Counted from the first letter of the stretch, positions 2,097 to 52,254 are shown. The stretch is 64,000 bases of DNA from a virus (IMGVR_UViG_3300043410_001471:1-64000); one strand, 5' to 3'. Numbers and translations are program-made. Notes: generated by a model from the letters alone, not told the origin.

Positions 2097-2386
2097 CACA
2101 ACAAGAATTTAATACAAAATACAAACAATACATACCAGAAGGTTGGGGTGGATTGGAATTCGATATACCAGAAGTTACTGATTACTTGGATAGTATTATG
2201 GATTATGGATTGGTTAATCTACCTGATTTCAAATTACATCAAATCAAATTAAAGTTTGGTATGAATCGATTCTATTTTGAAACATCAATGGAAAATAAAA
2301 AGCTAGAAGCAATTATTGAATTTGGAATAGAGCAACAAGTGAATAATATATTAATGAAAATATTAAAAGATGGAAAATTTAAATAG
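2093..2386 (+). CDS. hypothetical protein
   Basis: 97-aa ORF overlapping both neighbours by 4 and 17 nt. Confidence 0.5.
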   Translation: MTQQEFNTKYKQYIPEGWGGLEFDIPEVTDYLDSIMDYGLVNLPDFKLHQIKLKFGMNRFYFETSMENKKLEAIIEFGIEQQVNNILMKILKDGKFK

Positions 2387-3527
2387 CGTATGTTTCGTAG
2401 CAGAAGTTACGGAAATCAAAGAAATCGTAGGAGCTGATAACATTGAACAAGCCGTAGTAGGTGGTTGGAGTTGTATCGTAAAGAAAGGAGTTCATAAAGT
2501 TGGTGAAACAGTCGTATGTGCAACTACCGATGCAGTTATTCCATTTGAATTATCTGAAAAATTGGGAGTAACCAATTATTTGAGAAATGGTGGTAGAGTT
2601 AGGACTGTAAAGTTAAGAGGTGTATATTCAGAATGTTTGATTATCGATTTTGATAACTTACCTCAAATGAAAAAACAATTTACCAAAGGTATTGGGTATT
2701 ATTGGGAAAATGGTGAAGATGTAATGGAGTTATTGGGTATCTTCAAATATGAACCACCGGTTAAGCAAATTCAATTAGCAAGTGGTAGAAAGATTCGTTA
2801 TCAAGACAATCCTAATTTCCACGTTTACTATAAGTTCCCTAACTTAAAGAATGTGCCAGGATTGTTTACCGAAGAGGACACAGTTGAAATCACTCGTAAG
2901 ATTCACGGAACAAATGCCCGTTATGGTATTGTTAAGAAAAACAAATTATCATTGTGGGATAAGGTGAAGAAATTCTTACGATTGGCAGACAAGTGGGTTG
3001 AATATGAATTCGTAGTTGGTTCACATAATGTTGAAAAGGGTTCGGATTCACAAGGTTTTTATGATACGAATGTTTGGTATGAAATCGAAAAGAAATATGA
3101 CATCAAAAACAAATTATGGGATTATGTGAAAGATGAATTGTATGATGTTGAAATTGGTGATGGTATTACCTTATATGGTGAGATTTACGGAGCTGGAATT
3201 CAAAAGGGATATGATTATGGGTTGAAGGAGATTGAGTTCGTAGGATTCGATGCAAAAGAGAATGGTGAGTATTTGAGTACAATCAATTCAAAGTTGTTAT
3301 TCAGAGATATGTTAAAATTACCATATGTTGAGGAATTGTATTATGGTAATTGGTCACAATCAGTACAAGATAAATTTGTATTCAATAACTTCATTGAAGG
3401 AACTAAAGTACCACATGAAGGTATTGTAATCAAACATCAAACAGGCGAAAGACAAAAGATTGCTAAAGTAATCAACCCTGATTATTTAATCTATGGTGAG
3501 AAGCATGATATTGGAGATTCACATTAA
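2370..3527 (+). CDS. ATP-dependent RNA ligase (Rnl2-like nucleotidyltransferase)
   Basis: Motif I KIHGTNAR (lysine-adenylate site, very close to T4 Rnl2 KIHGTN), motif IV EIYGAGIQKGY, motif V EGIVIK. Confidence 0.75.
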   Translation: MENLNSVCFVAEVTEIKEIVGADNIEQAVVGGWSCIVKKGVHKVGETVVCATTDAVIPFELSEKLGVTNYLRNGGRVRTVKLRGVYSECLIIDFDNLPQMKKQFTKGIGYYWENGEDVMELLGIFKYEPPVKQIQLASGRKIRYQDNPNFHVYYKFPNLKNVPGLFTEEDTVEITRKIHGTNARYGIVKKNKLSLWDKVKKFLRLADKWVEYEFVVGSHNVEKGSDSQGFYDTNVWYEIEKKYDIKNKLWDYVKDELYDVEIGDGITLYGEIYGAGIQKGYDYGLKEIEFVGFDAKENGEYLSTINSKLLFRDMLKLPYVEELYYGNWSQSVQDKFVFNNFIEGTKVPHEGIVIKHQTGERQKIAKVINPDYLIYGEKHDIGDSH

Positions 3528-5071: not shown

Positions 5072-5157
5072 GGAAGGGTGGCAGAGTTGGTCTATCGCGC
5101 TTGACTTGAAATCAAGTGACTGTAACAGGTCCGTGGGTTCGAATCCTACCCCTTCCG
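5072..5157 (+). tRNA. tRNA-Ser (anticodon TGA), type II
   Basis: Acceptor GGAAGGG/CCCTTCC, anticodon arm CTTGA-CTTGAAA-TCAAG, long variable arm, T arm GTGGG-TTCGAAT-CCTAC. Confidence 0.8.
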
Positions 5158-5162
5158 CAAAT

Positions 5163-10695: not shown

Positions 10696-10720
10696 GGATT
10701 TTTATAACTAATTGATAATC

Positions 10721-10749
10721 AAAGACTTACATATGTAGGTCTTTTTTTA
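10721..10749 (+). terminator. intrinsic terminator
   Basis: AGACTTACATATGTAGGTCT hairpin followed by T7. Confidence 0.5.
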
Positions 10750-10808
10750 TGCCTAATTAGTTGATTTTCAACGATTTATAACTTTTTTTAAAAATAATTC
10801 AATAAAAG

Positions 10809-10840
10809 TTTGGCAATATGGGAATTTATTCGTATATTGT
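10809..10840 (+). promoter_or_regulatory. Bacteroidota-type promoter within the conserved cassette AAAATAATTnAnAAAAGTTTGGCAATAT
   Basis: TTTG at 10809-10812 and TATATTGT at 10833-10840 with 20-bp spacing; the cassette repeats at 13300, 40590, 39560 and 23020. Confidence 0.5.
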
Positions 10841-10888
10841 GAAACAATTGAGATTTAAACAATTATAAACACATAAAATTTCCGAGCT

Positions 10889-13168: not shown

Positions 13169-13314
13169 GCTCGGAAAGCCCGTGATTTAGGGGTGAAAAT
13201 CCCCTATTTCACAACTTATTGATAATCAATCACTTATAAATGGGGGTTTTTTGGGACACATAACTCATTGATAATCAATCAACTAAAAATATTTTAAAAA
13301 TAATTGATAAAATG

Positions 13315-13346
13315 TTTGGCAATATCGAAATTTCTTCGTATATTGT
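13315..13346 (+). promoter_or_regulatory. Bacteroidota-type promoter (conserved cassette)
   Basis: TTTGGCAATATCG...CGTATATTGTG, 21-bp spacing. Confidence 0.5.
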
Positions 13347-13412
13347 GTAAACAATTGAGGGAGATAGTTCCCCAATCTGAATTTTAAACTTTAAACATTA
13401 AATTATACCATT

Positions 13413-14651
13413 ATGGCTACTACCAAAGTAAACAAAAGTAAAAAAGATTTAAATATTGGTTTTACCAACGAAATCTACAAAGTGATTCAAGTAGGTCGTT
13501 CATTCGCTATGTTGACTACTGATGACAAATCGGTAACTAAAGTTGCCGGAGTAACTAAAGCTCGTATGAAAAACGCCTTAGCTGATAATAAAGCTATTCA
13601 GGGTTATATCGGTAAGACGGGTAAATTAACCTACAAATTAGTTGAGATGGATGAGTTCAAAAAGTTAGCACATTCTACTGAAGAAGTTAAAGCTGAATCG
13701 GTGCATGAGGCATTCGAAACACATGAGGCTTTGAAATCATTCATTCACGACAAAGGTTACGATTTCAAACCGAAAGGTTTATTTATGGACCAATTAAAGT
13801 GGAAATACTTACTTCGTTCAGCAGTTCGTGGTAAGAACATTATGATGGTTGGACCGACTGGTTGTGGTAAAACATTGGCCGCTCAATCATTGGTTAAATC
13901 ACTTAACCGACCTGATTTCTACTTTAACTTAGGTGCTACGCAGGACCCGAGAGCAACTTTAATTGGTAATACTCACTTCGATAAAGTAAAGGGTACATTC
14001 TTTAGTGAATCAGCATTCGTTAAGGCGATTAAAACTCCAAACTCAATTATCTTATTAGATGAGATATCTCGTGCTCATCCAGAAGCTTGGAACATCTTAA
14101 TGACTGTGTTAGACCAGGGACAACGATACCTTCGTTTGGATGAGGCTGAAGGTTCACCAATCGTTAAGGTTGCTAGTGGTGTTACATTTATCGCTACGGC
14201 TAACATCGGTAACGATTATACATCGACTCGTATTATGGACCGTGCGATGATGGACCGATTCGTTCAAATTGAGATGGACTTGTTAGATAAACAATCAGAG
14301 TTCGATTTGTTAAAACTTATTTATCCTGAAGCTGATGAGTATTCATTAAACGCTTTAGCTGAAATCGCTTCTACAACGCGTGAGTTAGTTAAGACTGATG
14401 CCAGTAAGGTATCAACAATCGTATCGACTCGTGCTAATGTTGAGGCGGCTGGTTTAATCTACGATGGATTCACATTGATGGAGGCAGCTGATATCGCTAT
14501 CTTACCTTACTTCTCTAACGATGGAGGTTTAGATTCAGAGCGTGTGTTTATGAAGCAATTAGTTCAGAAATATATTAAGACTGATTCATCCGATGATAAA
14601 CTTTTCAATGAAGTTAAGGATGAACAAAATGAAGATACTATCGTGTGGTAG
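13413..14651 (+). CDS. AAA+ ATPase, MoxR/CobS-like
   Basis: Walker A GPTGCGKT, Walker B ILLDEISRA, sensor region NILMTVLDQGQRY. Confidence 0.8.
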   Translation: MATTKVNKSKKDLNIGFTNEIYKVIQVGRSFAMLTTDDKSVTKVAGVTKARMKNALADNKAIQGYIGKTGKLTYKLVEMDEFKKLAHSTEEVKAESVHEAFETHEALKSFIHDKGYDFKPKGLFMDQLKWKYLLRSAVRGKNIMMVGPTGCGKTLAAQSLVKSLNRPDFYFNLGATQDPRATLIGNTHFDKVKGTFFSESAFVKAIKTPNSIILLDEISRAHPEAWNILMTVLDQGQRYLRLDEAEGSPIVKVASGVTFIATANIGNDYTSTRIMDRAMMDRFVQIEMDLLDKQSEFDLLKLIYPEADEYSLNALAEIASTTRELVKTDASKVSTIVSTRANVEAAGLIYDGFTLMEAADIAILPYFSNDGGLDSERVFMKQLVQKYIKTDSSDDKLFNEVKDEQNEDTIVW

Positions 14652-16869: not shown

Positions 16870-17130
16870 ATGATTACCTTTAACGATTTAAAATTTGAAA
16901 AGTGGCCTGATATGGGTGGTATTTTTTGCCGTATCCAATTTGAAAATGGATGGGGAGCTAGTATTGTAAAACATCAATATTCCTACGGAGGACCGAATGG
17001 ATTATATGAGTTGGCAGTATTGGATAGTAATGGTGAGCTATCGTATGAGAGTCCTATTACGGATGATGTGTTGGGTTATTTATCGGAAGATGATGTAGCT
17101 CGTTATGTAAATGAAATTAAAAACTTATAA
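16870..17130 (+). CDS. hypothetical protein
   Basis: 86-aa ORF. Confidence 0.5.
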   Translation: MITFNDLKFEKWPDMGGIFCRIQFENGWGASIVKHQYSYGGPNGLYELAVLDSNGELSYESPITDDVLGYLSEDDVARYVNEIKNL

Positions 17131-17713
17131 GATGAAAGTTATATTTTTAGACCACGATGGAGTTATTTGTTTATCTTCAGAGTTTGGTGGTCGTTTTAAG
17201 AAACAAAGAGAAGCAATGAGAAAGTTATCACAAAGTGTGATGAGCTTGCCGGTTGATGCTCGATTCGATAATTTTAATAAGAAAGCAATTGATGTATTAA
17301 ATGAGATATTGGAAGAAACAAATGCTAATGTTGTTGTCTCATCTGATTGGAAAAGATGGGCAAGTGTTGAGGAGATGGGTGAGTATTATGAATCACAGGG
17401 CATCAAAACGAAACCAATAGGGTTTACCAAATCAATAAACGATTGTGAAGTACCAGAAGATTTCAGCTTCTCTCGTCAATTCGATTTAGAACAAGAAAGG
17501 CACTTTGAAATTCTACAATACCTAAAAGATAATCCACAAATTACACATTGGGTTGCAGTGGATGACTTGAATATGGGTAAGGTTCAGAAGCATGAAAGTT
17601 GGGGTGATATGGAATTGGATTGGGGATTGGATAACTTTGTTCATACACCCAGAGTTAGAGAAGGGATTAAACAAAGTGGAATCAAAGAAAAGATTGTATC
17701 ATTTTTAAAGTAA
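17111..17713 (+). CDS. HAD-superfamily hydrolase (phosphatase-like)
   Basis: N-terminal motif I FLDHDGV; later VVSSDWK and VAVDDL. Confidence 0.5.
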   Translation: MKLKTYKMKVIFLDHDGVICLSSEFGGRFKKQREAMRKLSQSVMSLPVDARFDNFNKKAIDVLNEILEETNANVVVSSDWKRWASVEEMGEYYESQGIKTKPIGFTKSINDCEVPEDFSFSRQFDLEQERHFEILQYLKDNPQITHWVAVDDLNMGKVQKHESWGDMELDWGLDNFVHTPRVREGIKQSGIKEKIVSFLK

Positions 17714-18119: not shown

Positions 18120-18284
18120 TATATAGTTTTTTTGTAATATGTACCCCAAAATAGGGGGTCTACTAACCCATTGATAATCAATTAGTTATAAAACATTGAT
18201 TTTCAATGGGTTATGTGTATATAAAAGTTTTTTATTGAGTATCAACGAGTTAGGTTTTGACCCCCAAAAATAATACCCTAAATA

Positions 18285-18316
18285 TTTGGCTATGTCCCAA
18301 AATCTTCGTATATTAC
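18285..18316 (+). promoter_or_regulatory. Bacteroidota-type promoter
   Basis: TTTGGCTATG...CGTATATTAC, 21-bp spacing. Confidence 0.45.
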
Positions 18317-22811: not shown

Positions 22812-22862
22812 TAACCCATTGATTATCAATGAGTTATAACTTATTGACTATCAATGAGTTAT
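22812..22862 (+). promoter_or_regulatory. two tandem palindromic operator sites (CATTGATnATCAATGAGTTAT)
   Basis: CATTGATTATCAATGAGTTATAA at 22815 and TATTGACTATCAATGAGTTATGT at 22840; the same palindrome recurs upstream of other promoters. Confidence 0.45.
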
Positions 22863-23028
22863 GTATATAAACCGCTATAATATATCGGGTGGATTAACGA
22901 CCTTATTGGGGTATTTGAGGGGAAATTTGGGGTTCCCTGGCGGTTCCTGACTCCCTATATTGAGTATATGTAGGGTAGATATAGGTACATATTATTAAAA
23001 AAAATATATGAAAATAATTCCCCAAAAG

Positions 23029-23060
23029 TTTGGCAGTCTGAATATTATTTCGTACTTTTA
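23029..23060 (+). promoter_or_regulatory. Bacteroidota-type promoter
   Basis: TTTGGCAGTCTG...TACTTTTA, 21-bp spacing. Confidence 0.45.
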
Positions 23061-23071
23061 CTATGTAATAA

Positions 23072-23431
23072 ATGATAAACAATATGAAAACTACAAATCA
23101 AAAAGCGTTAGATTATTTAAATTCTAACCCAATCGTAAAGAATTTTATTGAGAAAGTAAATGAGACCCGTAAAGAAAGCTTCAAAGGTTCTTATATGGAT
23201 GGTAAAACCGATTTAATTGTTGAAATTGGTAATAAGTTCATTCGTTTATGGGCTGATTCATCCTGTTGGGGGTTCATTAGTAGAGTTGATGGTGATTTAA
23301 AAGGAGCACCTATTAAGAAGGGTGATTTGTTAAAACCAGCAACTTGGAAAGCTCCGGCTAAGCATGCCAGAGGTAACATTATCGATGGTACTGCACAATA
23401 CGGAGTATATGGTCCATCTTACATAAAATAA
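23072..23431 (+). CDS. hypothetical protein (alternative start 23084)
   Basis: 119-aa ORF; its leader TACTATGTAATAAATGATAAA is shared with the gene at 40662. Confidence 0.55.
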   Translation: MINNMKTTNQKALDYLNSNPIVKNFIEKVNETRKESFKGSYMDGKTDLIVEIGNKFIRLWADSSCWGFISRVDGDLKGAPIKKGDLLKPATWKAPAKHARGNIIDGTAQYGVYGPSYIK

Positions 23432-39166: not shown

Positions 39167-39569
39167 AAGCCATCACCCGGCCACCTGATTTAGTTTGGCA
39201 GTCCTGCGAAGCGCAACATATTTCATATCGGATATCGGAATATGCGATATAAGCCGCTGAGGGCATTGGAATTTTCTAATACAAATATTTCTACTTAACA
39301 TAATGGAAATTATACAACAAGTCTATCTGTGGCGCATCTAAGCGTGCAAAGGTACGAAAAATAATCCATACCGCCAAATAAAAAGTTATCCACATGGCTT
39401 GTTTATATGGGATTTTTTTCGTATCTTTATAGGGTGGTAGGGCGGGAGAAGACAATCGGAATTCAGGCCGGGTAACTCATTGATTCTGAAGGACTTATAT
39501 ATAGTAAAAAAATATATGTATAAATCGTTGATTTTCAATAAAAATAATTTAAAAATAATTCCTTAAATA

Positions 39570-39601
39570 TTTGGCAGTCTCAGCAGAATTGTCTATCTTT
39601 A
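39570..39601 (+). promoter_or_regulatory. Bacteroidota-type promoter (cassette variant)
   Basis: TTTGGCAGTCTC...TATCTTTA, 21-bp spacing. Confidence 0.45.
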
Positions 39602-40235: not shown

Positions 40236-40556
40236 ATGAGAAAGATAACATCACAATCAGTTAATGCGTTTATAGAACGCAAACCATTCAAAAAGAGTAA
40301 TATGGTCGTAACAATAGAGAATGGCATCACTTACTTAAAGTTACACAACAATAAGATTGCTGCCCTATTAGCAGATGGTCGTATGTGGATATCAAACGCC
40401 GGCTGGGCTACCAATACAACAAAGGAAAGGTTAAACGGATTGCCTGGCGTAAGGGTTAATCAGAAAAACTACCAATGGTTCATCAATGGTATCCCTTGGA
40501 GTGGTGAACCGGTGTATATCAATCAGTTATACAATACAGGTTTCCAATATGTGTAA
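40236..40556 (+). CDS. hypothetical protein
   Basis: 106-aa ORF. Confidence 0.5.
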   Translation: MRKITSQSVNAFIERKPFKKSNMVVTIENGITYLKLHNNKIAALLADGRMWISNAGWATNTTKERLNGLPGVRVNQKNYQWFINGIPWSGEPVYINQLYNTGFQYV

Positions 40557-40607
40557 CGTGTTGAGGTTCAATGAGTTATAACTTTTTTGAAAATAATTGA
40601 TAAAAAG

Positions 40608-40639
40608 TTTGGCAATATCGGAAAATTGTTGTATATTTA
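40608..40639 (+). promoter_or_regulatory. Bacteroidota-type promoter (conserved cassette)
   Basis: AAAATAATTGATAAAAAGTTTGGCAATATCG...GTATATTTA, 21-bp spacing. Confidence 0.5.
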
Positions 40640-41571: not shown

Positions 41572-41862
41572 ATGGGTATTTTAGAAGCGGCTATATATAA
41601 GCCAAAATCAGGTGGGTATGTGCCACATATTAAATGGTCAACACCCCTTATTAAGTTATTGGGAGGTAATCAGTCGGAAGGATTGAATCAAAAATTGAGA
41701 GAATCGTTCCCGAATGTAATTGAGCAATTGAATAGAGCTGGTATTACAAGCAAAGGTCGTGAAATGTACGCTAAGGGTATAATTGAGCGTAAATTCAATA
41801 CTGAATTAGAGGCTAATCAGGCACTCGCTATATATCAATCGATTATAAATTCCTTAAAATAA
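41572..41862 (+). CDS. hypothetical protein
   Basis: 96-aa ORF. Confidence 0.5.
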   Translation: MGILEAAIYKPKSGGYVPHIKWSTPLIKLLGGNQSEGLNQKLRESFPNVIEQLNRAGITSKGREMYAKGIIERKFNTELEANQALAIYQSIINSLK

Positions 41863-41944
41863 ATGAGGTAATATTTGGAATTGTCAGATATTATTCGTAT
41901 ATTTGTATAACAAATTTAAACAATAAAACAAAAAAAGAAAGAGT

Positions 41945-45858: not shown

Positions 45859-48123
45859 ATGAAAGGAACTTTTTTTTCAATGGACTTCATCGAAGATGTT
45901 GATGGTAATGTTCGTTTAATGGAAATTAATACGGATACCGCAATAGTTGAAGGTGGAATAACTAATTTAGATTTTACTGATTTTATAGATATGCTTGATG
46001 CAAATTCTATAACCGAAGTACATACAATTTCAAAAGCGTTTCAATCCGGTTTTGTAAATGCGTTATCACAAAGTTTAAGTGAGGATGCACCATTTATAAC
46101 TGTATTCGAAAATCATATGGAAGAAGATTCTACCATATACCCATCTTCAGTAGTCGATACTACCGATAGATTTATAATGAGATTGGCTTATGATGAGGCT
46201 GCTATATTCGATTCTGAATATGCTAAAAATAAATTGGCTCCATTAGATTTGTTCTATACAAATGATGATACTGGTTCTATTGTAGAGTATTATGTTTCAT
46301 CGTCTGCAAATGGTGTTACTGATATATTACCAATGGATTTCAATTCAGCGGAAATGCCGGATATCGCAGTTAAGAATTTGAATACAAATGTAAATAATTC
46401 TATTAAGTTTTTCAAAATAGGACACTCTTCATCTGAAACGGATGTTAGATATGATAAAGTAAAGGAAGCATTTTCTGAAAATAATCTTATTATTAAATTC
46501 TATGAAAATCCTTCAGATACTAAAGTTAAAAGTATTCGTTCAGTAAATGTAATCTACGGACCTAATTTGGATGTAATTACATTTGGTAGCTTCATAAGTG
46601 AGGCTTTATTTGAAAAACCTGTATCTTTAGAATTTGATGATGAAGTTATTATAACTAATTCAAATGTTAAACATTATTATGAATTAACTACAAACTATCC
46701 AAGATTTACAAATGTAAACAATTGGGGTGGAATCTTTGAAGAAGAAGAAGTAGTTAAAGCAGATGGTGGTAATATTTTAATAGGTAGTGCATCGGTTGGT
46801 ACTGAATTGAAATCATACTTTATCGAAGGTGCACCCAATACGGATGTTGTATCAGAATTCATGCAATGGTCTTCTCCAGGTTCTTCAATGCCATCGGGTT
46901 CATATGAAACTTCATCTGTTGTTGTTAATAATATTGAACAAGAGTTATCAAATAACACAATATTCCACTTAGTTATGGAAGATGGTTCTGATTTCAGAGC
47001 ATCGGGTGGAGCACACTTATTGGTATACGATAATGAAAAAGATGTATTGAGATATGAATCAGTTTCTAAAATAGATGAATCACTTCATAAGTTAGTTAAT
47101 TTGGATGGCGGTTTGGTTAATATATCTGCATCATATGGTGAGATATTAGATGGTGATTATAAAACTATCATTGTCGATATGGAAACTACCGATACATTCT
47201 TCTTATATAATGGTGGATTAAGTGTTAAAATTGTAACACATAACTGCTTCCCAGCTGGAACTAAAATTACTTTAGCAGATGGTTCTGAAAAGAACATCGA
47301 AGATTTAACAACCGATGATAAGTTATTAACTTACAATGAAAAAACGGGTATATTATCGGAAGGTACAATTGGTAACATTGTAAAGAAAAAAGAATTCTTA
47401 CTAATACAATTGGAATCAGAAGATGGTTCTATTGTTAAATCAACTGCTCTTCACAAATTCTATGTAAAAGGAAAAGGATGGGTAGCAGCGCAAGATATCG
47501 TAAAAGGTGATGTGTTAATTAAGAAAGATAAAAGTGAAACGATTGTAGTTGATAGAAACGATTTAAGTGGTGAGGTTGATGTATATCATATTATTGATGT
47601 TAAAGATAATCACACTTATTTTGCAGAAGGATTATTAGTACATAATTTCAAATATAGTGGTGGTTCTTGCTTTGTAGCAGGAACTAAAGTAACTATGGGA
47701 GATGGTTCTGAAAAGAATATTGAAGATGTAGTTGTTGGAGATGAAGTACTTTCTTTCAATGAATCTACTTTACAAAATGAAGTTAAGAAAGTAATTGGAT
47801 TAAAAACTCCAATTCACAATGATTTAGTTAAATACGAATTTGCAAATCAAACTTCAATAACTTCTACATTTGACCATCCATTCTATGTTGGTAATTTGGA
47901 ATTGGCATCATTTACTCCATTCTTAACTAATAAAAGATATGAATTGGATAGAGATGTTAGACAAATTAAAGTAGGTGATATGGTTTATTTATCTAATGGT
48001 GTTAGTAAAACAGCCATCAAAGATATCATTGAATTGGATGAGAAAGATACTCAAACATATATCATAACAGTGGAAGATAACCATAATTTTTACGCTAACG
48101 GAATTTTAGTACATAATAAATAA
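45859..48123 (+). CDS. large protein ending in two tandem Hint (intein-like/BIL) domains
   Basis: Hint 1 at 47245..47646 (CFPAGTKI...TALHKF...VHN) and Hint 2 at 47668..48117 (CFVAGTKV...TFDHPF...VHN-K-stop). The N-terminal residues DFIEDVDGNVRLMEINT resemble the C-terminal motif of ATP-grasp enzymes. Confidence 0.7.
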   Translation: MKGTFFSMDFIEDVDGNVRLMEINTDTAIVEGGITNLDFTDFIDMLDANSITEVHTISKAFQSGFVNALSQSLSEDAPFITVFENHMEEDSTIYPSSVVDTTDRFIMRLAYDEAAIFDSEYAKNKLAPLDLFYTNDDTGSIVEYYVSSSANGVTDILPMDFNSAEMPDIAVKNLNTNVNNSIKFFKIGHSSSETDVRYDKVKEAFSENNLIIKFYENPSDTKVKSIRSVNVIYGPNLDVITFGSFISEALFEKPVSLEFDDEVIITNSNVKHYYELTTNYPRFTNVNNWGGIFEEEEVVKADGGNILIGSASVGTELKSYFIEGAPNTDVVSEFMQWSSPGSSMPSGSYETSSVVVNNIEQELSNNTIFHLVMEDGSDFRASGGAHLLVYDNEKDVLRYESVSKIDESLHKLVNLDGGLVNISASYGEILDGDYKTIIVDMETTDTFFLYNGGLSVKIVTHNCFPAGTKITLADGSEKNIEDLTTDDKLLTYNEKTGILSEGTIGNIVKKKEFLLIQLESEDGSIVKSTALHKFYVKGKGWVAAQDIVKGDVLIKKDKSETIVVDRNDLSGEVDVYHIIDVKDNHTYFAEGLLVHNFKYSGGSCFVAGTKVTMGDGSEKNIEDVVVGDEVLSFNESTLQNEVKKVIGLKTPIHNDLVKYEFANQTSITSTFDHPFYVGNLELASFTPFLTNKRYELDRDVRQIKVGDMVYLSNGVSKTAIKDIIELDEKDTQTYIITVEDNHNFYANGILVHNK

Positions 48124-48284
48124 AATAATATGGCACAAGTATATAAAACATTTACAAAAGCTGATTTAACCAATAAGGGTGTAGCCCCTACTACTACTTT
48201 ACAAAAACAAAAAATAGCACAAATAATTACAAACTTTGTTGCATATTTTAAGTTAAAGCATATGTAATTTAAAACAAATAGGTT

Positions 48285-48788
48285 ATGGTTATATTCACTA
48301 AAGAAGAATGTGAGTATATTAAATCATTTTATTATACGGAAAAAGAATCATCTTCTAATGATGTACAACATTATGGAGATGTATCAATAAAATTTAGCAA
48401 TTCATCTGCTAAGTTTATATCTACTACTAATAAAGAACTCATAGAATTTTTATTAAATAAATTAAAACCATATGGTATCAAATCGATACCTATGGTTAAA
48501 TTTATGCGTTATCAAACTGGTGATAGTTTAGCAAGACATACTGATTTTGATAAGTATGGTGTTGATAAAATATATAAAACATTTTTAATTCAAATGTCAA
48601 ATTCGGAAGATTATGTTGGTGGCGATTTAATAGTTGGTAAAGATGTTCAATCAAGAGAGCAAGGGTGGTTATCTATTATAAACCCAACAACTCCACATGA
48701 AGTTACAAAAATGATTTCAGGTGAACGAATATCTTTAGTATTATTTTTAAGTGGAGAAAATTTGGATTTAAAAAAATCATTAATATAA
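48285..48788 (+). CDS. 2OG-Fe(II) oxygenase (prolyl-hydroxylase-like)
   Basis: HxD motif ARHTDFD, distal His PHEVTK, Arg/Ser ERISLVLF. Confidence 0.55.
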   Translation: MVIFTKEECEYIKSFYYTEKESSSNDVQHYGDVSIKFSNSSAKFISTTNKELIEFLLNKLKPYGIKSIPMVKFMRYQTGDSLARHTDFDKYGVDKIYKTFLIQMSNSEDYVGGDLIVGKDVQSREQGWLSIINPTTPHEVTKMISGERISLVLFLSGENLDLKKSLI

Positions 48789-49174
48789 TGTATTCTTTAT
48801 ATAAATTTCAAACAAGAGGAATTGGTGTAATATCTGATATGGATATTATTAAAGATACTTTTATTGGAAATTATTTTTCTAAAAATGAACAATTGACGCC
48901 TAATAGTAGATTGATATATAATGGTTGGGTTGAAACGAATCCATTGGGTAGATACTTGAATCACAATATTAATTCGAATTTATATTTGATTAAAAAGGAT
49001 AATGTAATTGAATTATATACAAATGAAAATATATTTGCGCATACTGAATTAACTATAAATTATATGGATATAATAGAATTAATAGATTTACCAGAACACT
49101 TAATTTTAGAGTATGGTATATCCGATTTTAATTATATTGAAGAAACGATAAATTTAAATAAAAATATAATATAA
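48788..49174 (+). CDS. SET-domain protein (divergent paralog)
   Basis: GIGVISDMDIIKDTFIG, RYLNHNINSNL (compare NHSCNPN), ELTINY (compare ELTFDY). Confidence 0.5.
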   Translation: MYSLYKFQTRGIGVISDMDIIKDTFIGNYFSKNEQLTPNSRLIYNGWVETNPLGRYLNHNINSNLYLIKKDNVIELYTNENIFAHTELTINYMDIIELIDLPEHLILEYGISDFNYIEETINLNKNII

Positions 49175-49584
49175 TGGTTACATTGATATCTCCAACTAAA
49201 GTAGAAGTAAGAACATCTCCTATACATGGGTATGGAGTATTTGCTACTGATAAAATAAATAAAGGTGAAGTAATAGAAGAATGTCATCTTTTAACAATAC
49301 CATTCAAATTAGGAACATTCGATTCCTTTTTAGTTAATCATAAGTTTAATTTCCCATCAATAGGTAAAGTTGAAGAATATGTAATACCATTAGGTTATGG
49401 AGCTATATATAACCATTCGGATAATAATAACGCATTCTGGCGTACAAATATAGAACATAAAACATTTGAATTTGTAGCAGTTAGAGATATAGAAATTGGA
49501 GAAGAAGTGTGTACTTATTATGGTGATAGTACTTATTGGGAGACTGTTAATAAATTTACAAACGAAAAAGTTAAAGTAATATAA
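49174..49584 (+). CDS. minimal SET-domain lysine methyltransferase, chlorovirus vSET-like
   Basis: HGYGVFATDKINKGEVIEEC, LGYGAIYNHSDNNNA, IEIGEEVCTYYGDSTYW; close alignment with the recalled PBCV-1 vSET sequence. Confidence 0.7.
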   Translation: MVTLISPTKVEVRTSPIHGYGVFATDKINKGEVIEECHLLTIPFKLGTFDSFLVNHKFNFPSIGKVEEYVIPLGYGAIYNHSDNNNAFWRTNIEHKTFEFVAVRDIEIGEEVCTYYGDSTYWETVNKFTNEKVKVI

Positions 49585-50315
49585 TGAAATTAGTTTATAG
49601 TTTTACTACAAAAATGGGTAACTATACCGATAATGATTGGGTAGTAATTTACTATAAAGCAGCTATGCTTAGAGCTAGAGAATTGGGGTATAAAATAAAA
49701 TTGTATGGTTGTAATTTTATGTATGAATCTCTTATAGATTATATAGATGAATTCGTTAGTATAGAAGATGAGGAATTTATATTGACAGATGATTTAAAAA
49801 TGTTTATACATTCTAAAGAAGGGTTGGATTGTATAACAATTGATGGTGATATAATATTAGAATCAAAATTAATATTACCGGATGATTGTGATGTTTTATT
49901 TGAAACAAAGTTATTGAATACTAAAAATCAAAAGTTTATAAAATATTTGGATATCTTTAAAAAATATAAAACAATCGAATTTATAAACGGATTTGATTAT
50001 GATGGATTAAGTGCATGTAATGTTGGTATTTTAAAATTTAATAACATACATACTAAGAATTTATTATTGAATAGATACTATCAGTTTAGAAAGTGGTATT
50101 TAGAAGTAATAGAACCAACTGAAAATTTAACTCAATGGGATGACCCTGCTATTATAATGTGTGAATATTATTTTGCAAGAATTATGGATAAAAACAATAT
50201 ATCTTATAAATTTTGTAAAGATTTCAATGATTATACACATTATGCTTCTGAATTAAAATTTCAACAAAAATTCTTTAATCACATAAATGCTATTTTTAAT
50301 AAACGAATTTTATAA
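49584..50315 (+). CDS. hypothetical protein, tandem paralog A (possible GT-A glycosyltransferase, DGD motif)
   Basis: CITIDGDIILES and GILKFNN shared with the downstream paralog. Confidence 0.4.
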   Translation: MKLVYSFTTKMGNYTDNDWVVIYYKAAMLRARELGYKIKLYGCNFMYESLIDYIDEFVSIEDEEFILTDDLKMFIHSKEGLDCITIDGDIILESKLILPDDCDVLFETKLLNTKNQKFIKYLDIFKKYKTIEFINGFDYDGLSACNVGILKFNNIHTKNLLLNRYYQFRKWYLEVIEPTENLTQWDDPAIIMCEYYFARIMDKNNISYKFCKDFNDYTHYASELKFQQKFFNHINAIFNKRIL

Positions 50316-51019
50316 TGAATCTTATTTATACTTTCGATAAAAATGTTTATAAAAACGATTCTCATAAATTTGATATTATTAAATCTTATTATATCAATAG
50401 TATCAATTCTGCTAAACGATTGGGATACAAAACTGAAATTTATACCAATTCGGATATATTCAATAATCACATTGATATTACTAATACCACTTCAAATGAA
50501 TTTACATTTTGGGATGGATTTAAAACATTACCATTATTAGATGATACAAATGGTTTATTAGTAGATGGTGATATAATATTTGATTCTAAAATGCCTGAAT
50601 TTACAAATGATATTGATTTGTATTTCGATGGGTGGGAGAGTTGGTTGGATTTATATTCAGAATGTGTAAATGAATTAACATTATTAGGAATAAATGAAAT
50701 CATACCCGAATGGGAATCAGTTCCTCAAAGAGTCATCAACATAGGAATTCTTAAAATAAATAATGTCCAATTAAAAGAATTGTATTTAGATAGGTGGTAT
50801 AAGATGTATAATTTTTGTAATATGAACAAACATAATATGAAATATTTTTATATGTGTTGTACAATTACATCTCAATATTTATTAACAATATTATCTAAGA
50901 ATTATAGAATACAAAACTTGTCAAATAGATTAGGTAAACCTAATGGATATTATACACATTTCGTAGGTCAGCAAAAATACAAATCAAATCCACTATCAAT
51001 CGAAAAATCTATTATATGA
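50315..51019 (+). CDS. hypothetical protein, tandem paralog B
   Basis: LLVDGDIIFDS and GILKINN; ATGA overlaps on both sides. Confidence 0.4.
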   Translation: MNLIYTFDKNVYKNDSHKFDIIKSYYINSINSAKRLGYKTEIYTNSDIFNNHIDITNTTSNEFTFWDGFKTLPLLDDTNGLLVDGDIIFDSKMPEFTNDIDLYFDGWESWLDLYSECVNELTLLGINEIIPEWESVPQRVINIGILKINNVQLKELYLDRWYKMYNFCNMNKHNMKYFYMCCTITSQYLLTILSKNYRIQNLSNRLGKPNGYYTHFVGQQKYKSNPLSIEKSII

Positions 51020-52254
51020 AAATATATGTACATCACTGGTTTACCGATGAATTATTTATTAAATTAGCACATAATACTACTAATAGAGTTTATGAATTAT
51101 CCGATTTTAATTTTCAAAAAATAGGTAAAGTTAGTTGTGAATATAATGATTTAAAAATAGAATTTATTTTTAATCCGGAATTGAATGATAATACCGATGG
51201 GTATCATTTAATAGATTTTTTTACATCATTAAGGAAAAGGCATTTCTACGATTATTATAACGATATAGATGTTAGTGATGGTGTAGAAGATACTCCATTT
51301 ATAAAAAGATTTGCCGAATTATTGAAGGATAAGAATGGTTGGATTATAATGTTATTACGAACAGAGAAGATAATAGATTCCTTAGATACCAATGATTATT
51401 ATATTGTTAAATTGGAGGAAGAACTTCTAAAATTAAATCAGCATATAATTGTTACTGATAATTTTTTTGTAAATGATAAAATACGAAATACATATCCAAA
51501 CATATATTTTGCATTAACAAATACGATATGGCAATGGAACGAATTAATTAATATAAGATATTGGTATGAATTTTCCAACATATTTTCAAAATTAAACTTT
51601 GATTATAAATTAATGTATTCTATAAGAAGGCATAAAAAATATAGAATAGAAATACTTAAAAATTTAGCAAAGTTAAATAACAAAGATATCCTATTACAAC
51701 GGGCCGATTTTTTTAAAAATGATTCATATCATTTATACGATTCTGAATTAGTTGAATTAAAAAATGTGAATTTAAATTCCTTAGAAGGATTGAGTGATTT
51801 TCAAAATCTTAAATTATTAGATTATCAAATGGGTGTTGAATATGAAGTATTTTTTAGATTTTTAAATCTATCAAAAATGCAAATATTGGATGAGAGTTGG
51901 TCTTGGTATAAGGGAGATTTCACATCACAATATCTTTCTGAAAAATCATATGGATTACTATTAGCTAAGATACCATTTATATCAACTCACTCATATCCAT
52001 TAGATGTTATTCAATCTATGTTGAATATAAGACCACATCCATTTTATAAAGAATCAAAAGAATGTAAAGGTGACCCTATAAAATTTACCGAATATGTAGA
52101 TAACTTTTTAATTAATTTTGATTATAATTATCAATTGTGTAAAGAATGGACAGATGAGTGCCATAATTTACTTATAGAAAAATTAGAAAACGAAAACTCA
52201 TTTTTAGAATTATTAAGCAACGGATTTAAAAAATCGATTAAATTACTTTTATAA
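51016..52254 (+). CDS. putative glycosyltransferase, paralog 3 of the 29955/31024 family
   Basis: YSIRRHKKYRIEIL and LSEKSYGLLLAKIPFIS match the paralog motifs. Confidence 0.35.
   Translation: MKIYVHHWFTDELFIKLAHNTTNRVYELSDFNFQKIGKVSCEYNDLKIEFIFNPELNDNTDGYHLIDFFTSLRKRHFYDYYNDIDVSDGVEDTPFIKRFAELLKDKNGWIIMLLRTEKIIDSLDTNDYYIVKLEEELLKLNQHIIVTDNFFVNDKIRNTYPNIYFALTNTIWQWNELINIRYWYEFSNIFSKLNFDYKLMYSIRRHKKYRIEILKNLAKLNNKDILLQRADFFKNDSYHLYDSELVELKNVNLNSLEGLSDFQNLKLLDYQMGVEYEVFFRFLNLSKMQILDESWSWYKGDFTSQYLSEKSYGLLLAKIPFISTHSYPLDVIQSMLNIRPHPFYKESKECKGDPIKFTEYVDNFLINFDYNYQLCKEWTDECHNLLIEKLENENSFLELLSNGFKKSIKLLL

What the first reader, a model, noticed from the sequence alone, without database searches (positions are those of the whole stretch)
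22812..22862. Palindromic operator CATTGATnATCAATG(AGTTATAA) repeated upstream of the promoter cassettes
A 15-bp inverted repeat with perfect 7-bp arms occurs twice in tandem here (22815 and 22840). It also occurs at 10717, 13207, 13266 and 18171, with half-sites at 39479 and 40567, and degenerate TTGATTTTCAA variants at 10763, 18196 and 39533. All lie 60-150 bp upstream of the conserved promoters of major operons. This is the signature of a dimeric DNA-binding regulator, either phage-encoded or host, coordinating a regulon. No regulator is assigned.
Basis: seen in the sequence. Interest (0 to 1): 0.6.

Follow-up and report, generated by a model that had tools for sequence, protein, structure and literature searches.

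The report
Symmetric IHF-like sites before phage promoters
The repeated palindrome is real, but it is not a private phage operator: it is a DNA motif found across the whole phylum Bacteroidota whose two halves each match the classic binding consensus of the DNA-bending protein IHF, and this phage places arrays of it upstream of its strongest host-type promoters.

Summary
The palindrome is real and far above chance. A matrix trained only on bacterial DNA finds 9 sites of at least 16 bits in the window, against 0.07 expected. All strong sites lie in five intergenic regions that carry a conserved Bacteroidota-type promoter cassette.

The full element is a 25-bp dyad, YAA-N4-TTGAT-W-ATCAA-N4-TTR. 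Each arm matches the E. coli IHF consensus WATCAA-N4-TTR. The two AA steps are 9 bp apart, as at the IHF proline kinks.

The motif is not private to this phage. An exact 23-mer pattern occurs in 57 viral contigs and in more than 120 bacterial contigs, 118 of the 120 returned being Bacteroidota. It is strongly intergenic there. In Chitinophagales it sits at about -81 of rplM promoters, close to its position in the phage cassettes.

In phages the sites form arrays with 25- or 49-bp spacing. The distal copy is often the apex of a terminator hairpin. Spacer bases show little or no covariation, which argues against an RNA hairpin as the conserved function.

My best reading, at about 0.5, is a site for a host IHF/HU-family homodimer (the Bacteroidota 'IHFalpha-like' clade) that shapes DNA upstream of strong promoters. 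Binding is untested. I found no published description of this motif.

The parts
22812..22836 (.). Site 1 of the flagged tandem pair. TAACCCATTGATTATCAATGAGTTA, centre 22824, 24.3 bits, the best site in the window.
22837..22861 (.). Site 2 of the tandem pair. It abuts site 1, 25 bp centre to centre. TAACTTATTGACTATCAATGAGTTA, centre 22849, 21.2 bits.
   Evidence: The tandem pair is kept in the orthologous locus L278.
18164..18188 (.). Site, centre 18176, 22.9 bits. First of three sites upstream of the cassette at 18269.
18189..18213 (.). Site, centre 18201, 20.5 bits. TTGATTTTCAA variant, 25 bp from the previous site.
18228..18252 (.). Proximal, weaker site, centre 18240, 14.3 bits. It lies 45 bp upstream of the -33 TTTG.
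10705..10729 (.). Distal site, centre 10717, 21.7 bits. Its right arm overlaps the left arm of a terminator hairpin.
10721..10751 (+). Intrinsic-terminator-like hairpin AAAGACTTACATATGTAGGTCTTT followed by a T run.
10754..10778 (.). Proximal site, centre 10766, 18.5 bits. It lies 49 bp from the distal site and 43 bp upstream of the -33 TTTG.
13212..13236 (.). Distal site, centre 13224, 19.9 bits. It lies between hairpin 13186-13202 and GGGGG plus a T run at 13243-13253.
13261..13285 (.). Proximal site, centre 13273, 20.2 bits. It lies 49 bp from the distal site and 42 bp upstream of the -33 TTTG.
39473..39497 (.). Distal site with a degenerate right arm, centre 39485, 17.5 bits.
39521..39545 (.). 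Proximal site, centre 39533, 13.0 bits. It lies 37 bp upstream of the -33 TTTG.
40554..40578 (.). Weak site in which only the promoter-facing half is kept (TTCAATGAGTTATAA). Centre 40566, 8.9 bits, which is not above chance on its own.
10793..10840 (+). Promoter cassette: AATAATT..TTTGG (-33), a 20-nt spacer, then TATATTGT (-7). This is the Bacteroidota sigmaA type.
13299..13346 (+). Promoter cassette, a paralogue of the one at 10793, upstream of the AAA ATPase gene 13413-14651.
18269..18316 (+). Promoter cassette.
23013..23060 (+). Promoter cassette downstream of the flagged pair, upstream of the DUF7717 gene 23072-23431.
39554..39601 (+). Promoter cassette.
40592..40639 (+). Promoter cassette with only a weak half-site upstream.
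41858..41905 (+). Promoter cassette with a perfect TATATTTG -7 box. It lies at the end of ORF 41572-41862 and has no strong site.

Best explanation
Each element is a 25-bp dyad-symmetric protein-binding site, YAA-N4-TTGAT-W-ATCAA-N4-TTR. It is a symmetrised version of the IHF consensus. It is most likely recognised by a host IHF/HU-family protein that binds as a homodimer. The candidate is the 'IHFalpha-like' clade that is exclusive to Bacteroidota, which lack IHFbeta.

Proposed mechanism, all inferred:
- The two beta-ribbon arms read the two ATCAA elements in the minor groove.
- Their prolines kink the two AA steps, which are 9 bp apart.
- The two sides of the protein body clamp the two TTR elements.
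- The DNA is therefore bent sharply.

The phage places one to three such sites, spaced 25 or about 49 bp apart, upstream of paralogous copies of a strong host-sigmaA promoter cassette. The proximal site is centred near -78 to -81, and distal copies sit next to or inside the terminator of the preceding operon. In that position the bend would help recruit host RNA polymerase, as architectural activation, and/or insulate the promoter from the upstream transcription unit.

Shown here: the motif, its symmetry, its match to the consensus, its spread across the phylum, its intergenic location, its link to the promoter cassettes and its conservation in related phages.

Inferred only: the identity of the binding protein, the bending, and the effect on transcription.
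For: 1. Motif shape from unbiased data. 76 secondary bacterial sites were anchored only on TTGATWATCAA. They show +6 to +9 nearly free, +10 T 0.88, +11 T 0.94 and +12 A 0.78 or G 0.12. That is W-ATCAA-N4-TTR on both arms. Anchoring on one half only recovers the mirrored half at 62-81% per position.

2. Match to published IHF anatomy. The consensus is WATCAAnnnnTTR. WATCAA starts near the centre of the site. Two AA steps 9 bp apart receive the prolines. TTR is clamped by the protein body in the minor groove. In the palindrome W is the dyad and the AA/TT steps lie at +4/+5 and -5/-4, which is 9 bp apart.

3. A suitable protein exists. Bacteroidetes have an exclusive IHFalpha-like clade and no IHFbeta, and its specificity is an open question. 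E. coli IHF substitutes for the Bacteroides host factor in CTnDOT integration, and that factor (BHFa) belongs to the IHF/HU family.

4. Host-wide distribution. 118 of the 120 bacterial loci returned are Bacteroidota. There are 77 secondary exact cores against 1.8 expected. It is the top odd palindrome in gene-selected phage relatives and in the bacterial loci. Only 25 of 199 cores lie in coding sequence although 78% of the DNA is coding, and density is equal in all classes of intergenic region.

5. The conserved feature is not a hairpin. Positions +-6 to +-9 are not complementary beyond chance in viral sites and only weakly so in bacterial sites.

6. Link to promoters. All strong window sites lie in cassette-bearing intergenic regions. 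AATCAA and TTA are invariant in nine cassettes with 68% mean identity. In three relatives only the promoter-facing half, W-ATCAA-N4-TTA, survives. The site lies upstream of rplM in four Bacteroidota taxa, and in three of them it is exactly 53 nt from the -7 box. That puts the centre near -81, matching the phage's -78 to -81.

7. No phage-encoded candidate was found in the window.
Against: - No binding data of any kind exist. The identification rests on resemblance to a consensus defined in Proteobacteria.
- Canonical IHF sites are asymmetric, and a symmetric IHF site has no characterised precedent that I could find.
- Abutting sites 25 bp apart, the commonest spacing in phages, are tighter than the roughly 35-bp footprint of wrapped E. 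coli IHF. Simultaneous occupancy may be impossible, or the protein may bind differently.
- In viral loci the site-to-promoter distance takes values about 5.5 bp apart, on both faces of the helix. That does not fit a strictly face-dependent activator.
- Bacterial sites in general show no fixed position relative to promoters.
- Site density differs more than ten-fold between lineages, which a universal nucleoid protein does not obviously predict.
- No HU/IHF gene lies next to the sites in 837 kb of bacterial loci.
- The host of this phage is unknown.
Confidence: 0.5

Rival explanations
1. The site binds a different conserved host protein of Bacteroidota, not one of the HU/IHF fold. Examples would be a global dimeric or tetrameric transcription factor or another nucleoid protein. 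The resemblance to the IHF consensus would then be coincidental.
For: - The motif is symmetric, spread across the phylum and intergenic.
- It sits upstream of strong promoters: rplM, TonB-dependent receptors, typA and the phage cassettes.
- Tandem abutting 25-bp units are typical of cooperative transcription-factor arrays.
- Bacteroidota also have many uncharacterised HU-HIG/wHTH paralogues.
Against: - The inner half-sites are centred only about 6 bp apart and the outer AT-only triplets 22 bp apart, with a free N4 between them. That is awkward for HTH dimers, which need about 10 bp between half-site centres. It fits minor-groove or indirect readout instead.
- The match to WATCAA-N4-TTR, including the 9-bp AA spacing, covers three independent features.
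- FNR/CRP-type TTGAT-N4-ATCAA spacing is not met. The Fur-type 7-1-7 sequence is different.
Confidence: 0.25
2. The palindrome acts at the RNA or single-strand level. It would be the apex of terminator hairpins, or a processing or stability hairpin, at the 3' ends of transcription units. Its place upstream of promoters would then be a by-product of compact intergenic regions.
For: - In four relatives the distal copy is the apex of a stem of about 25 bp. The stem has a covarying GC clamp (GACCTAA/TTAGGTC, CCCCTAA/TTAGGGG, CCCCAA/TTGGGG) flanked by A and U runs, with z scores of -5.5 to -7.7.
- At 10717 the site overlaps a terminator stem.
- In Riemerella phage RAP44 the palindrome is followed by a T run.
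- Many bacterial copies sit directly beside intrinsic terminators or tRNA 3' ends.
- Tandem pairs fold into long hairpins, z -6.3.
Against: - A hairpin needs pairing, not a fixed sequence. Here the sequence is fixed across a phylum, while the N4 spacers are not complementary beyond chance.
- The lone palindrome folds weakly: -1.4 kcal/mol, z -0.8.
- Proximal sites have no GC clamp or U run.
- Sites are as dense in divergent intergenic regions, where no transcript ends, as in convergent ones.
- In three relatives only one half survives, and it stays invariant.
Confidence: 0.12
3. One reading: a phage-encoded dimeric regulator, encoded outside this 64-kb window or by an unrecognisable small ORF, binds the sites and coordinates one temporal class of phage promoters. 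The bacterial copies would be prophage remnants or mimicry.
For: - Within the window the sites are exclusive to one promoter cassette family.
- The contigs of relatives reach 176-251 kb, so most of the genome is unseen.
- crAss-like phages encode their own IHF-like subunits.
- One motif-bearing viral contig, L090, encodes a Bac_DNA_binding protein.
Against: - The same motif is found in unrelated phages: crAssphage, Lak megaphages, Riemerella and Tenacibaculum phages.
- It lies next to housekeeping genes (rplM, typA, tRNAs) in chromosomes of all Bacteroidota orders.
- It reaches 10-17 copies per 8 kb in one MAG.
- No DNA-binding domain was found in the window.
Confidence: 0.08
4. It is a selfish or recombinogenic repeat: a REP/MITE-like element, or the end of a mobile promoter cassette that spreads by duplication or recombination, with no binding function of its own.
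For: - The promoter cassettes in the window are paralogous copies that share sequence beyond the functional boxes.
- Copy number is very high in one Microscillaceae MAG.
- In one Prevotella MAG the site is embedded in a multicopy element.
Against: - Apart from the one multicopy Prevotella element, the flanks of bacterial and viral copies are unrelated. Only the 25-bp dyad is shared.
- The same sequence is kept across a whole phylum, whereas REPs are lineage-specific.
- The position is conserved relative to rplM promoters in different taxa, while the intervening sequence is not.
Confidence: 0.05

Closest known systems
E. coli IHF binding sites (WATCAA-N4-TTR), such as lambda H' and H1, and IHF-stimulated phage and operon promoters (lambda pL, Mu Pe, ilvPG; the promoter examples are from my own knowledge)
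   Same: - The same core and the same N4-TTR spacing.
- W lies at the centre of the site and the AA steps are 9 bp apart.
- The sites sit tens of bp upstream of strong promoters in a phage.
   Different: - Here both halves carry the consensus, giving a perfect dyad. The canonical site has one consensus half and an optional A-tract half, reflecting the alpha/beta heterodimer.
- The hosts lack IHFbeta.
- The sites come in abutting 25-bp arrays.
- Binding is untested.
RIB/RIP elements of E. coli: IHF sites inside BIME/REP clusters at the 3' ends of transcription units (Boccard and Prentki 1993, listed among the references seen)
   Same: - Reiterated intergenic IHF-consensus sites, often beside terminators.
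- High copy number in some genomes.
   Different: - There are no flanking REP palindromes.
- The sites are not restricted to 3' ends.
- The sequence is conserved across a phylum, not within one species.
SPO1 TF1, a phage-encoded HU-family homodimer that binds preferred sites at phage early promoters (own knowledge; TF1 is named as HU-like)
   Same: An HU-fold homodimer with preferred sites near phage early promoters.
   Different: - No HU/IHF gene was found in this window.
- The motif is also chromosomal in the hosts.
- TF1 depends on hmU-containing DNA.
Fis site arrays upstream of rrn and ribosomal-protein promoters in E. coli (own knowledge)
   Same: Arrays of nucleoid-protein sites at about -70 to -140 of the strongest promoters. 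Here that covers rplM in Chitinophagales and the phage cassettes.
   Different: The consensus is unrelated, and I know of no Fis homologue in Bacteroidota.
FNR box TTGAT-N4-ATCAA and Fur-family 7-1-7 boxes
   Same: The TTGAT/ATCAA half-sites match FNR. The 7-1-7 layout matches the Fur family.
   Different: The spacer is 1 bp, not 4. The Fur, PerR and Zur arm sequences differ. Neither family has the conserved outer TAA/TTA at +-10 to +-12.

Membership tests
IHF-type binding site | WATCAA core element | tested here: met
   W-ATCAA is present on both strands of every strong site. It is invariant in 9 aligned cassettes.
IHF-type binding site | TTR element exactly 4 bp 3' of WATCAA | tested here: met
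   In 76 bacterial sites anchored only on the core: +10 T 0.88, +11 T 0.94, +12 A 0.78 or G 0.12, with +6 to +9 nearly free.
IHF-type binding site | Two AA (TT) steps 9 bp apart around the centre, for proline intercalation | tested here: met
   In TTGAT-W-ATCAA the steps are at -5/-4 and +4/+5, which is 9 bp apart. The requirement is described. This is a sequence-level match only; kinking was not tested.
IHF-type binding site | Asymmetric site: consensus in the 3' half only, with an optional A-tract in the 5' half | tested here: not met
   The left half mirrors the right at 62-81% per position. The site is a dyad, so it is a variant and not a canonical member.
IHF-type binding site | Bound and bent by an IHF/HU-family protein | not testable with these tools
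   There is only indirect literature. Bacteroidetes have an IHFalpha-like clade of unknown specificity. E. coli IHF can replace the Bacteroides host factor.
Phage-private operator of a phage-encoded dimeric regulator | The motif is confined to the phage and its relatives | tested here: not met
   It is present in 57 viral contigs of diverse kinds and in more than 120 bacterial contigs, 118 of the 120 returned being Bacteroidota.
Phage-private operator of a phage-encoded dimeric regulator | A cognate DNA-binding regulator is encoded by the phage | tested here: inconclusive
   No HU/IHF hit in any frame. No DNA-binding Pfam domain in the 20 ORFs from 14.7 to 25.5 kb. Most of the genome lies outside the window.
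FNR/CRP-type box | TTGAT-N4-ATCAA, with half-site centres about 10 bp apart | tested here: not met
   The spacer is 1 bp in all copies.
Intrinsic terminator | GC-rich stem followed by a U run | tested here: not met
   The lone palindrome folds at -1.4 kcal/mol, z -0.8, and has no U run. Only distal copies are embedded in, or overlap, separate GC-clamped terminator hairpins.
Structured RNA family | Compensatory changes that keep pairing; match to an Rfam model | tested here: not met
   Spacer positions are not complementary beyond chance in viral sites and only weakly so in bacterial sites. There is no Rfam match at gathering score, or at E up to 10 apart from a spurious miRNA hit.
REP/BIME-like repeat | Lineage-specific high-copy palindrome, at 3' ends, with a RAYT transposase | tested here: not met
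   The sequence is shared across the phylum. Density is equal in divergent and convergent intergenic regions. A RAYT was not searched for.

The most novel reading that the evidence does not exclude
The 25-bp dyad YAA-N4-TTGAT-W-ATCAA-N4-TTR is the cognate high-affinity site of the Bacteroidota-specific IHFalpha-like homodimer. That would be the first evidence that a homodimeric IHF reads the classical consensus on both arms. It would also imply that Bacteroidota and their phages (this jumbo-phage lineage, crAssphage, Lak phages and others) share a phylum-wide architectural code. That code would be used as a modular upstream enhancer and insulator of strong sigmaA promoters, and would have expanded to about one site per gene in some lineages.
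Probability: 0.4. Interest if true: 0.72.

Novelty: new variant of a known kind. Interest (0 to 1): 0.6.

Why it matters
1. It reassigns the finding. What looked like a phage operator is a motif shared by the hosts and by many unrelated Bacteroidota phages. It could therefore help predict hosts for uncultured phages and annotate promoter regions in a phylum whose regulatory DNA is poorly known.

2. It makes an open question directly testable. A 2025 preprint states that it is unknown whether the Bacteroidetes IHFalpha-like protein homodimerises or makes sequence-specific contacts without IHFbeta. The dyad found here is a concrete candidate site, with obvious point-mutant controls.

3. If it is confirmed, the arrays upstream of strong promoters would be useful parts for building expression systems in Bacteroidota. 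These arrays occur before the phage cassettes, rplM and TonB-dependent receptor genes.

4. The coupling with terminator hairpins would be a compact 'terminator, bend, promoter' design for intergenic regions.

Tried and rejected
- Close relatives among cultured phages. Megablast of 14 kb against INPHARED found nothing. tblastn with the ATPase gave at most 55% identity. The host is therefore inferred only from the promoter type and the motif.
- Known RNA families. Rfam found only two tRNAs at gathering score. A permissive scan of 10.5-23.2 kb gave only chance-level hits and no Flavo-1.
- A phage-encoded HTH regulator. Pfam on 20 ORFs found none.
- Autoregulation clue. There is no HU/IHF gene near the sites in 120 bacterial loci, and only one Bac_DNA_binding gene in the viral loci, in L090, 6.5 kb from its site.
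- Hairpin covariation. It is absent in viral sites and marginal in bacterial ones.
- A fixed site-to-promoter distance in bacteria. There is none in general. Only the rplM case is positionally conserved.
- Literature. Searches for the literal motif and its degenerate forms, for Bacteroidetes IHF sites and for intergenic palindromes found no description of this element. One search was wasted on too broad a term. Ringwald and Gardner 2015 on BHFa is not held.
- A structured RNA in the 150 nt between the flagged pair and its promoter. The fold is not significant, z -0.44.
- FNR, Fur-family, DUS/USS, parS/matS/SBS-type and dif readings. I considered these from knowledge and rejected them on spacing, sequence, copy number or intergenic restriction.

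Full report
**The observation**

The flagged stretch reads TAACCCATTGATTATCAATGAGTTA|TAACTTATTGACTATCAATGAGTTA. The perfect 15-mer CATTGATTATCAATG occurs once, at 22817, with 0.00 expected. Allowing two mismatches gives 7 copies against 1.08 expected, and none of 100 shuffles reaches 7. These copies are at 10710, 13217, 13266, 18169, 18194, 22817 and 22842. Three details are off: 13207 should be 13217; the second tandem copy is imperfect; and the flagged pair lies 180-205 bp, not 60-150 bp, from its promoter.

**The setting**

The window is AT-rich (about 31% G+C). All long ORFs are on the plus strand. It carries two tRNA genes and phage-type genes, including an RNA ligase, an AAA ATPase and a carbamoyltransferase. 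No cultured phage is close to it. Relatives in IMG/VR come from contigs of up to 251 kb, so this is part of a large uncultured phage.

Seven copies of a promoter cassette lie between 10.8 and 41.9 kb. The cassette is AATAATT-N-TTTGG, a 20-nt spacer, then TAnnTTT(G/A). This is the -33 TTTG / -7 TAnnTTTG architecture of Bacteroidota sigmaA promoters; the consensus is cited in the paper read.

**The real extent of the motif**

Aligning the copies shows a longer dyad, TAAC-nn-ATTGAT-W-ATCAAT-nn-GTTA. To avoid circularity I built the matrix from bacterial DNA only. With it the window has 9 sites of at least 16 bits against 0.07 expected. The 11 best sites all lie in five intergenic regions.

The window has 21 intergenic regions of at least 100 bp. 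Five of the six with a cassette hold sites, and none of the other 15 does. Proximal sites are centred 37-45 bp upstream of the -33 TTTG. That is about -73 to -81 if the TA of the -7 box is at -12. Distal sites follow at +49 bp (10717/10766 and 13224/13273) or as abutting units 25 bp apart (18176/18201 and 22824/22849).

**The motif is not private to the phage**

The exact pattern CATTGATWATCAATNANTTATAA occurs in 57 viral contigs. Their flanks are mostly unrelated, and the site is often directly upstream of a TTTGG...TAnnTTTG promoter. Of those 120 loci, 118 are Bacteroidota. They cover:
- Bacteroidales, including Prevotella
- Flavobacteriales
- Sphingobacteriales
- Cytophagales
- Chitinophagales and Saprospiraceae

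BLAST against cultured phages finds the motif in crAssphage (upstream of the RepL gene), Prevotella Lak megaphages, Riemerella phages and a Tenacibaculum phage.

Within the 837 kb of bacterial loci there are 77 further exact TTGATWATCAA cores against 1.8 expected. In phage relatives chosen through a gene rather than the motif, there are 57 against 5.2. TTGAT-W-ATCAA is the most frequent of all 1024 odd palindromes of this form in the window, in those relatives and in the bacterial loci.

Only 25 of 199 cores in the bacterial loci (the primary hits included) lie in coding sequence, although 78% of the DNA is coding. Density per kb is the same in tandem, divergent and convergent intergenic regions. 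Density differs greatly between lineages: 10-17 sites per 8 kb in one Microscillaceae MAG, and about one per locus in Flavobacterium, Pedobacter or Prevotella.

**What the motif resembles**

The 76 secondary bacterial sites, anchored only on the core, give a symmetrised profile. Positions +6 to +9 are nearly free, +10 is T (0.88), +11 is T (0.94) and +12 is A (0.78) or G (0.12). Each arm is therefore W-ATCAA-N4-TTR, the consensus of E. coli IHF.

The literature describes the following:
- WATCAA starts near the centre of the site.
- TTR lies four bp further 3'.
- Two AA steps nine bp apart take the intercalating prolines.
- The TTR minor groove is clamped by the protein body.

In the palindrome W is the dyad, and the AA/TT steps are at +4/+5 and -5/-4, exactly nine bp apart. 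The element is thus a canonical IHF half-site reflected about its own centre, as expected for a homodimer.

Bacteroidetes have an exclusive 'IHFalpha-like' clade and no IHFbeta. Whether this protein homodimerises or reads sequence is stated to be unknown. E. coli IHF can replace the Bacteroides host factor in CTnDOT integration, and that factor (BHFa) belongs to the IHF/HU family. I found no paper describing this palindrome.

**Protein site or hairpin?**

If pairing were selected, the spacer positions should covary. In 126 non-redundant viral sites they do not. In bacterial sites the excess is marginal. A lone site folds at -1.4 kcal/mol, z -0.8.

The distal copies nevertheless have a real relation to terminators:
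- At 10717 the right arm overlaps a terminator stem.
- In four relatives the site is the apex of a hairpin of about 25 bp. Its GC clamp covaries (GACCTAA/TTAGGTC, CCCCTAA/TTAGGGG, CCCCAA/TTGGGG), it is flanked by A and U runs, and z is -5.5 to -7.7.
- Many bacterial copies sit beside terminators or tRNA 3' ends.

I read this as a DNA site that is often co-located with, and sometimes built into, terminators. I do not read it as a terminator itself. The RNA-level rival still keeps some weight.

**Evidence for constraint and for a promoter link**

I aligned nine cassettes, two from the window and seven from relatives, with 68% mean identity. AATCAA and TTA of both sites are invariant, as are the -33 and -7 boxes. 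In three relatives the proximal site has lost its distal arm but keeps the promoter-facing W-ATCAA-N4-TTA. The window differs from those relatives by a 22-bp insert between the proximal site and the -33 box, which changes that distance from 21 to 43 bp. The orthologue of the flagged locus (L278) keeps the tandem pair with its 25-bp spacing.

In phage loci the spacing between neighbouring sites peaks at 25 bp (21 cases), 27 bp (11) and 48-51 bp (31). Site centres cluster 21-43 bp upstream of the -33 box.

Clustering the genes next to bacterial sites showed the site upstream of rplM in four taxa. In three of them the pattern ends exactly 53 nt before the -7 box, although the sequence in between is not conserved. 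That puts the centre near -81, the same as in the phage cassettes. Other recurrent neighbours are TonB-dependent receptor genes and typA. In bacteria overall, however, there is no preferred distance to promoters.

**Search for a phage-encoded binder**

No frame in the window matches HU, IHF or TF1. Twenty ORFs around the sites have no DNA-binding Pfam domain. crAss-like phages do encode IHF-like subunits, and one motif-bearing viral contig encodes a Bac_DNA_binding protein. A phage-encoded HU-fold protein elsewhere in this genome therefore cannot be excluded.

**Conclusion**

Shown:
- The motif is a 25-bp dyad and is highly non-random.
- It is conserved across Bacteroidota and many of their phages.
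- It is intergenic.
- In this phage it is tied to one family of host-type promoters, in ordered arrays next to terminators.

Inferred:
- It is the site of a host IHF/HU-family homodimer that bends DNA upstream of strong promoters, to activate them and/or insulate them from upstream transcription. I put this at about 0.5.

Remaining difficulties:
- The 25-bp abutting arrays are tight for an IHF-size footprint.
- The spread of site-to-promoter distances uses both faces of the helix.
- Site density varies very unevenly between lineages.

It is wrong about the motif being private to the phage and about a simple regulon.

Noticed in passing
window 22862-22940 (and L278 about 975-1050): The stretch after the flagged pair is almost identical in the orthologous locus L278, although the flanks diverge. 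It reads GTATATAAACCGCTATAATA...ACCTTATTGGGGTATTTGAGGGGAAATTTGGGG. It has three GGGG tracts about 11 bp apart, which look iteron- or G-quadruplex-like. The RNA fold is not significant (z -0.44). With the adjacent sites it could be an origin-like or other protein-binding region.
   Followed up: partly
L174, L230, L255, L236 (bacterial loci): The site lies upstream of the ribosomal protein L13 gene (rplM) in four Chitinophagales/Bacteroidota genomes. In three of them it is exactly 53 nt from the -7 box, and the sequence in between is not conserved.
   Followed up: yes
L140-L249, contigs of Microscillaceae MAG Prado074: There are 10-17 sites of at least 14 bits per 8 kb, roughly one per gene. This REP-like abundance is not seen in most other Bacteroidota loci.
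   Followed up: partly
L141, L171, L173, L176, L181, L233, L237 (Prevotella MAG HGM04830): Here the site is part of a multicopy element with identical flanks. It is followed by tandem GTGCCAACT / TTGCCAAC repeats.
   Followed up: no
L257 1501-1530 (crAssphage LMMB, MT006214 about 96.8 kb): The prototypical crAssphage lineage carries one perfect site, preceded by ATATA-rich repeats. It lies in the intergenic region upstream of the RepL replication-initiator gene.
   Followed up: partly
window 2370-3527, 17111-17713, 55-126, 5072-5158: Candidate RNA-repair genes and tRNA genes: an RNA ligase (phrog_968), a HAD domain of the 'Swiss Army Knife' RNA-repair proteins, tRNA-Gln(UUG) and tRNA-Ser(UGA).
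   Followed up: no
window 10841-10860 and 13347-13366: The two cassettes at 10793 and 13299 share a conserved 5' leader, (G)AAACAATTGAG, after the -7 box. Relatives have GTAAACAATTCAC. The cassettes are therefore paralogous beyond the promoter boxes.
   Followed up: no
bacterial loci L137-L256: The spacing between neighbouring sites shows an unexplained peak at 11 bp (14 cases). This means overlapping sites shifted by one helical turn. It is absent from phage loci, where 25 and 49 bp dominate.
   Followed up: no
window 48000-52000: A block of very low G+C (24-25%) against about 31% for the rest of the window.
   Followed up: no
L258 1500-1545 (Riemerella phage RAP44): The TTGATTTTCAA variant is flanked by AAACCCA/TGGGTTT and followed by a T run. 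In this phage the palindrome itself looks like an intrinsic terminator.
   Followed up: no
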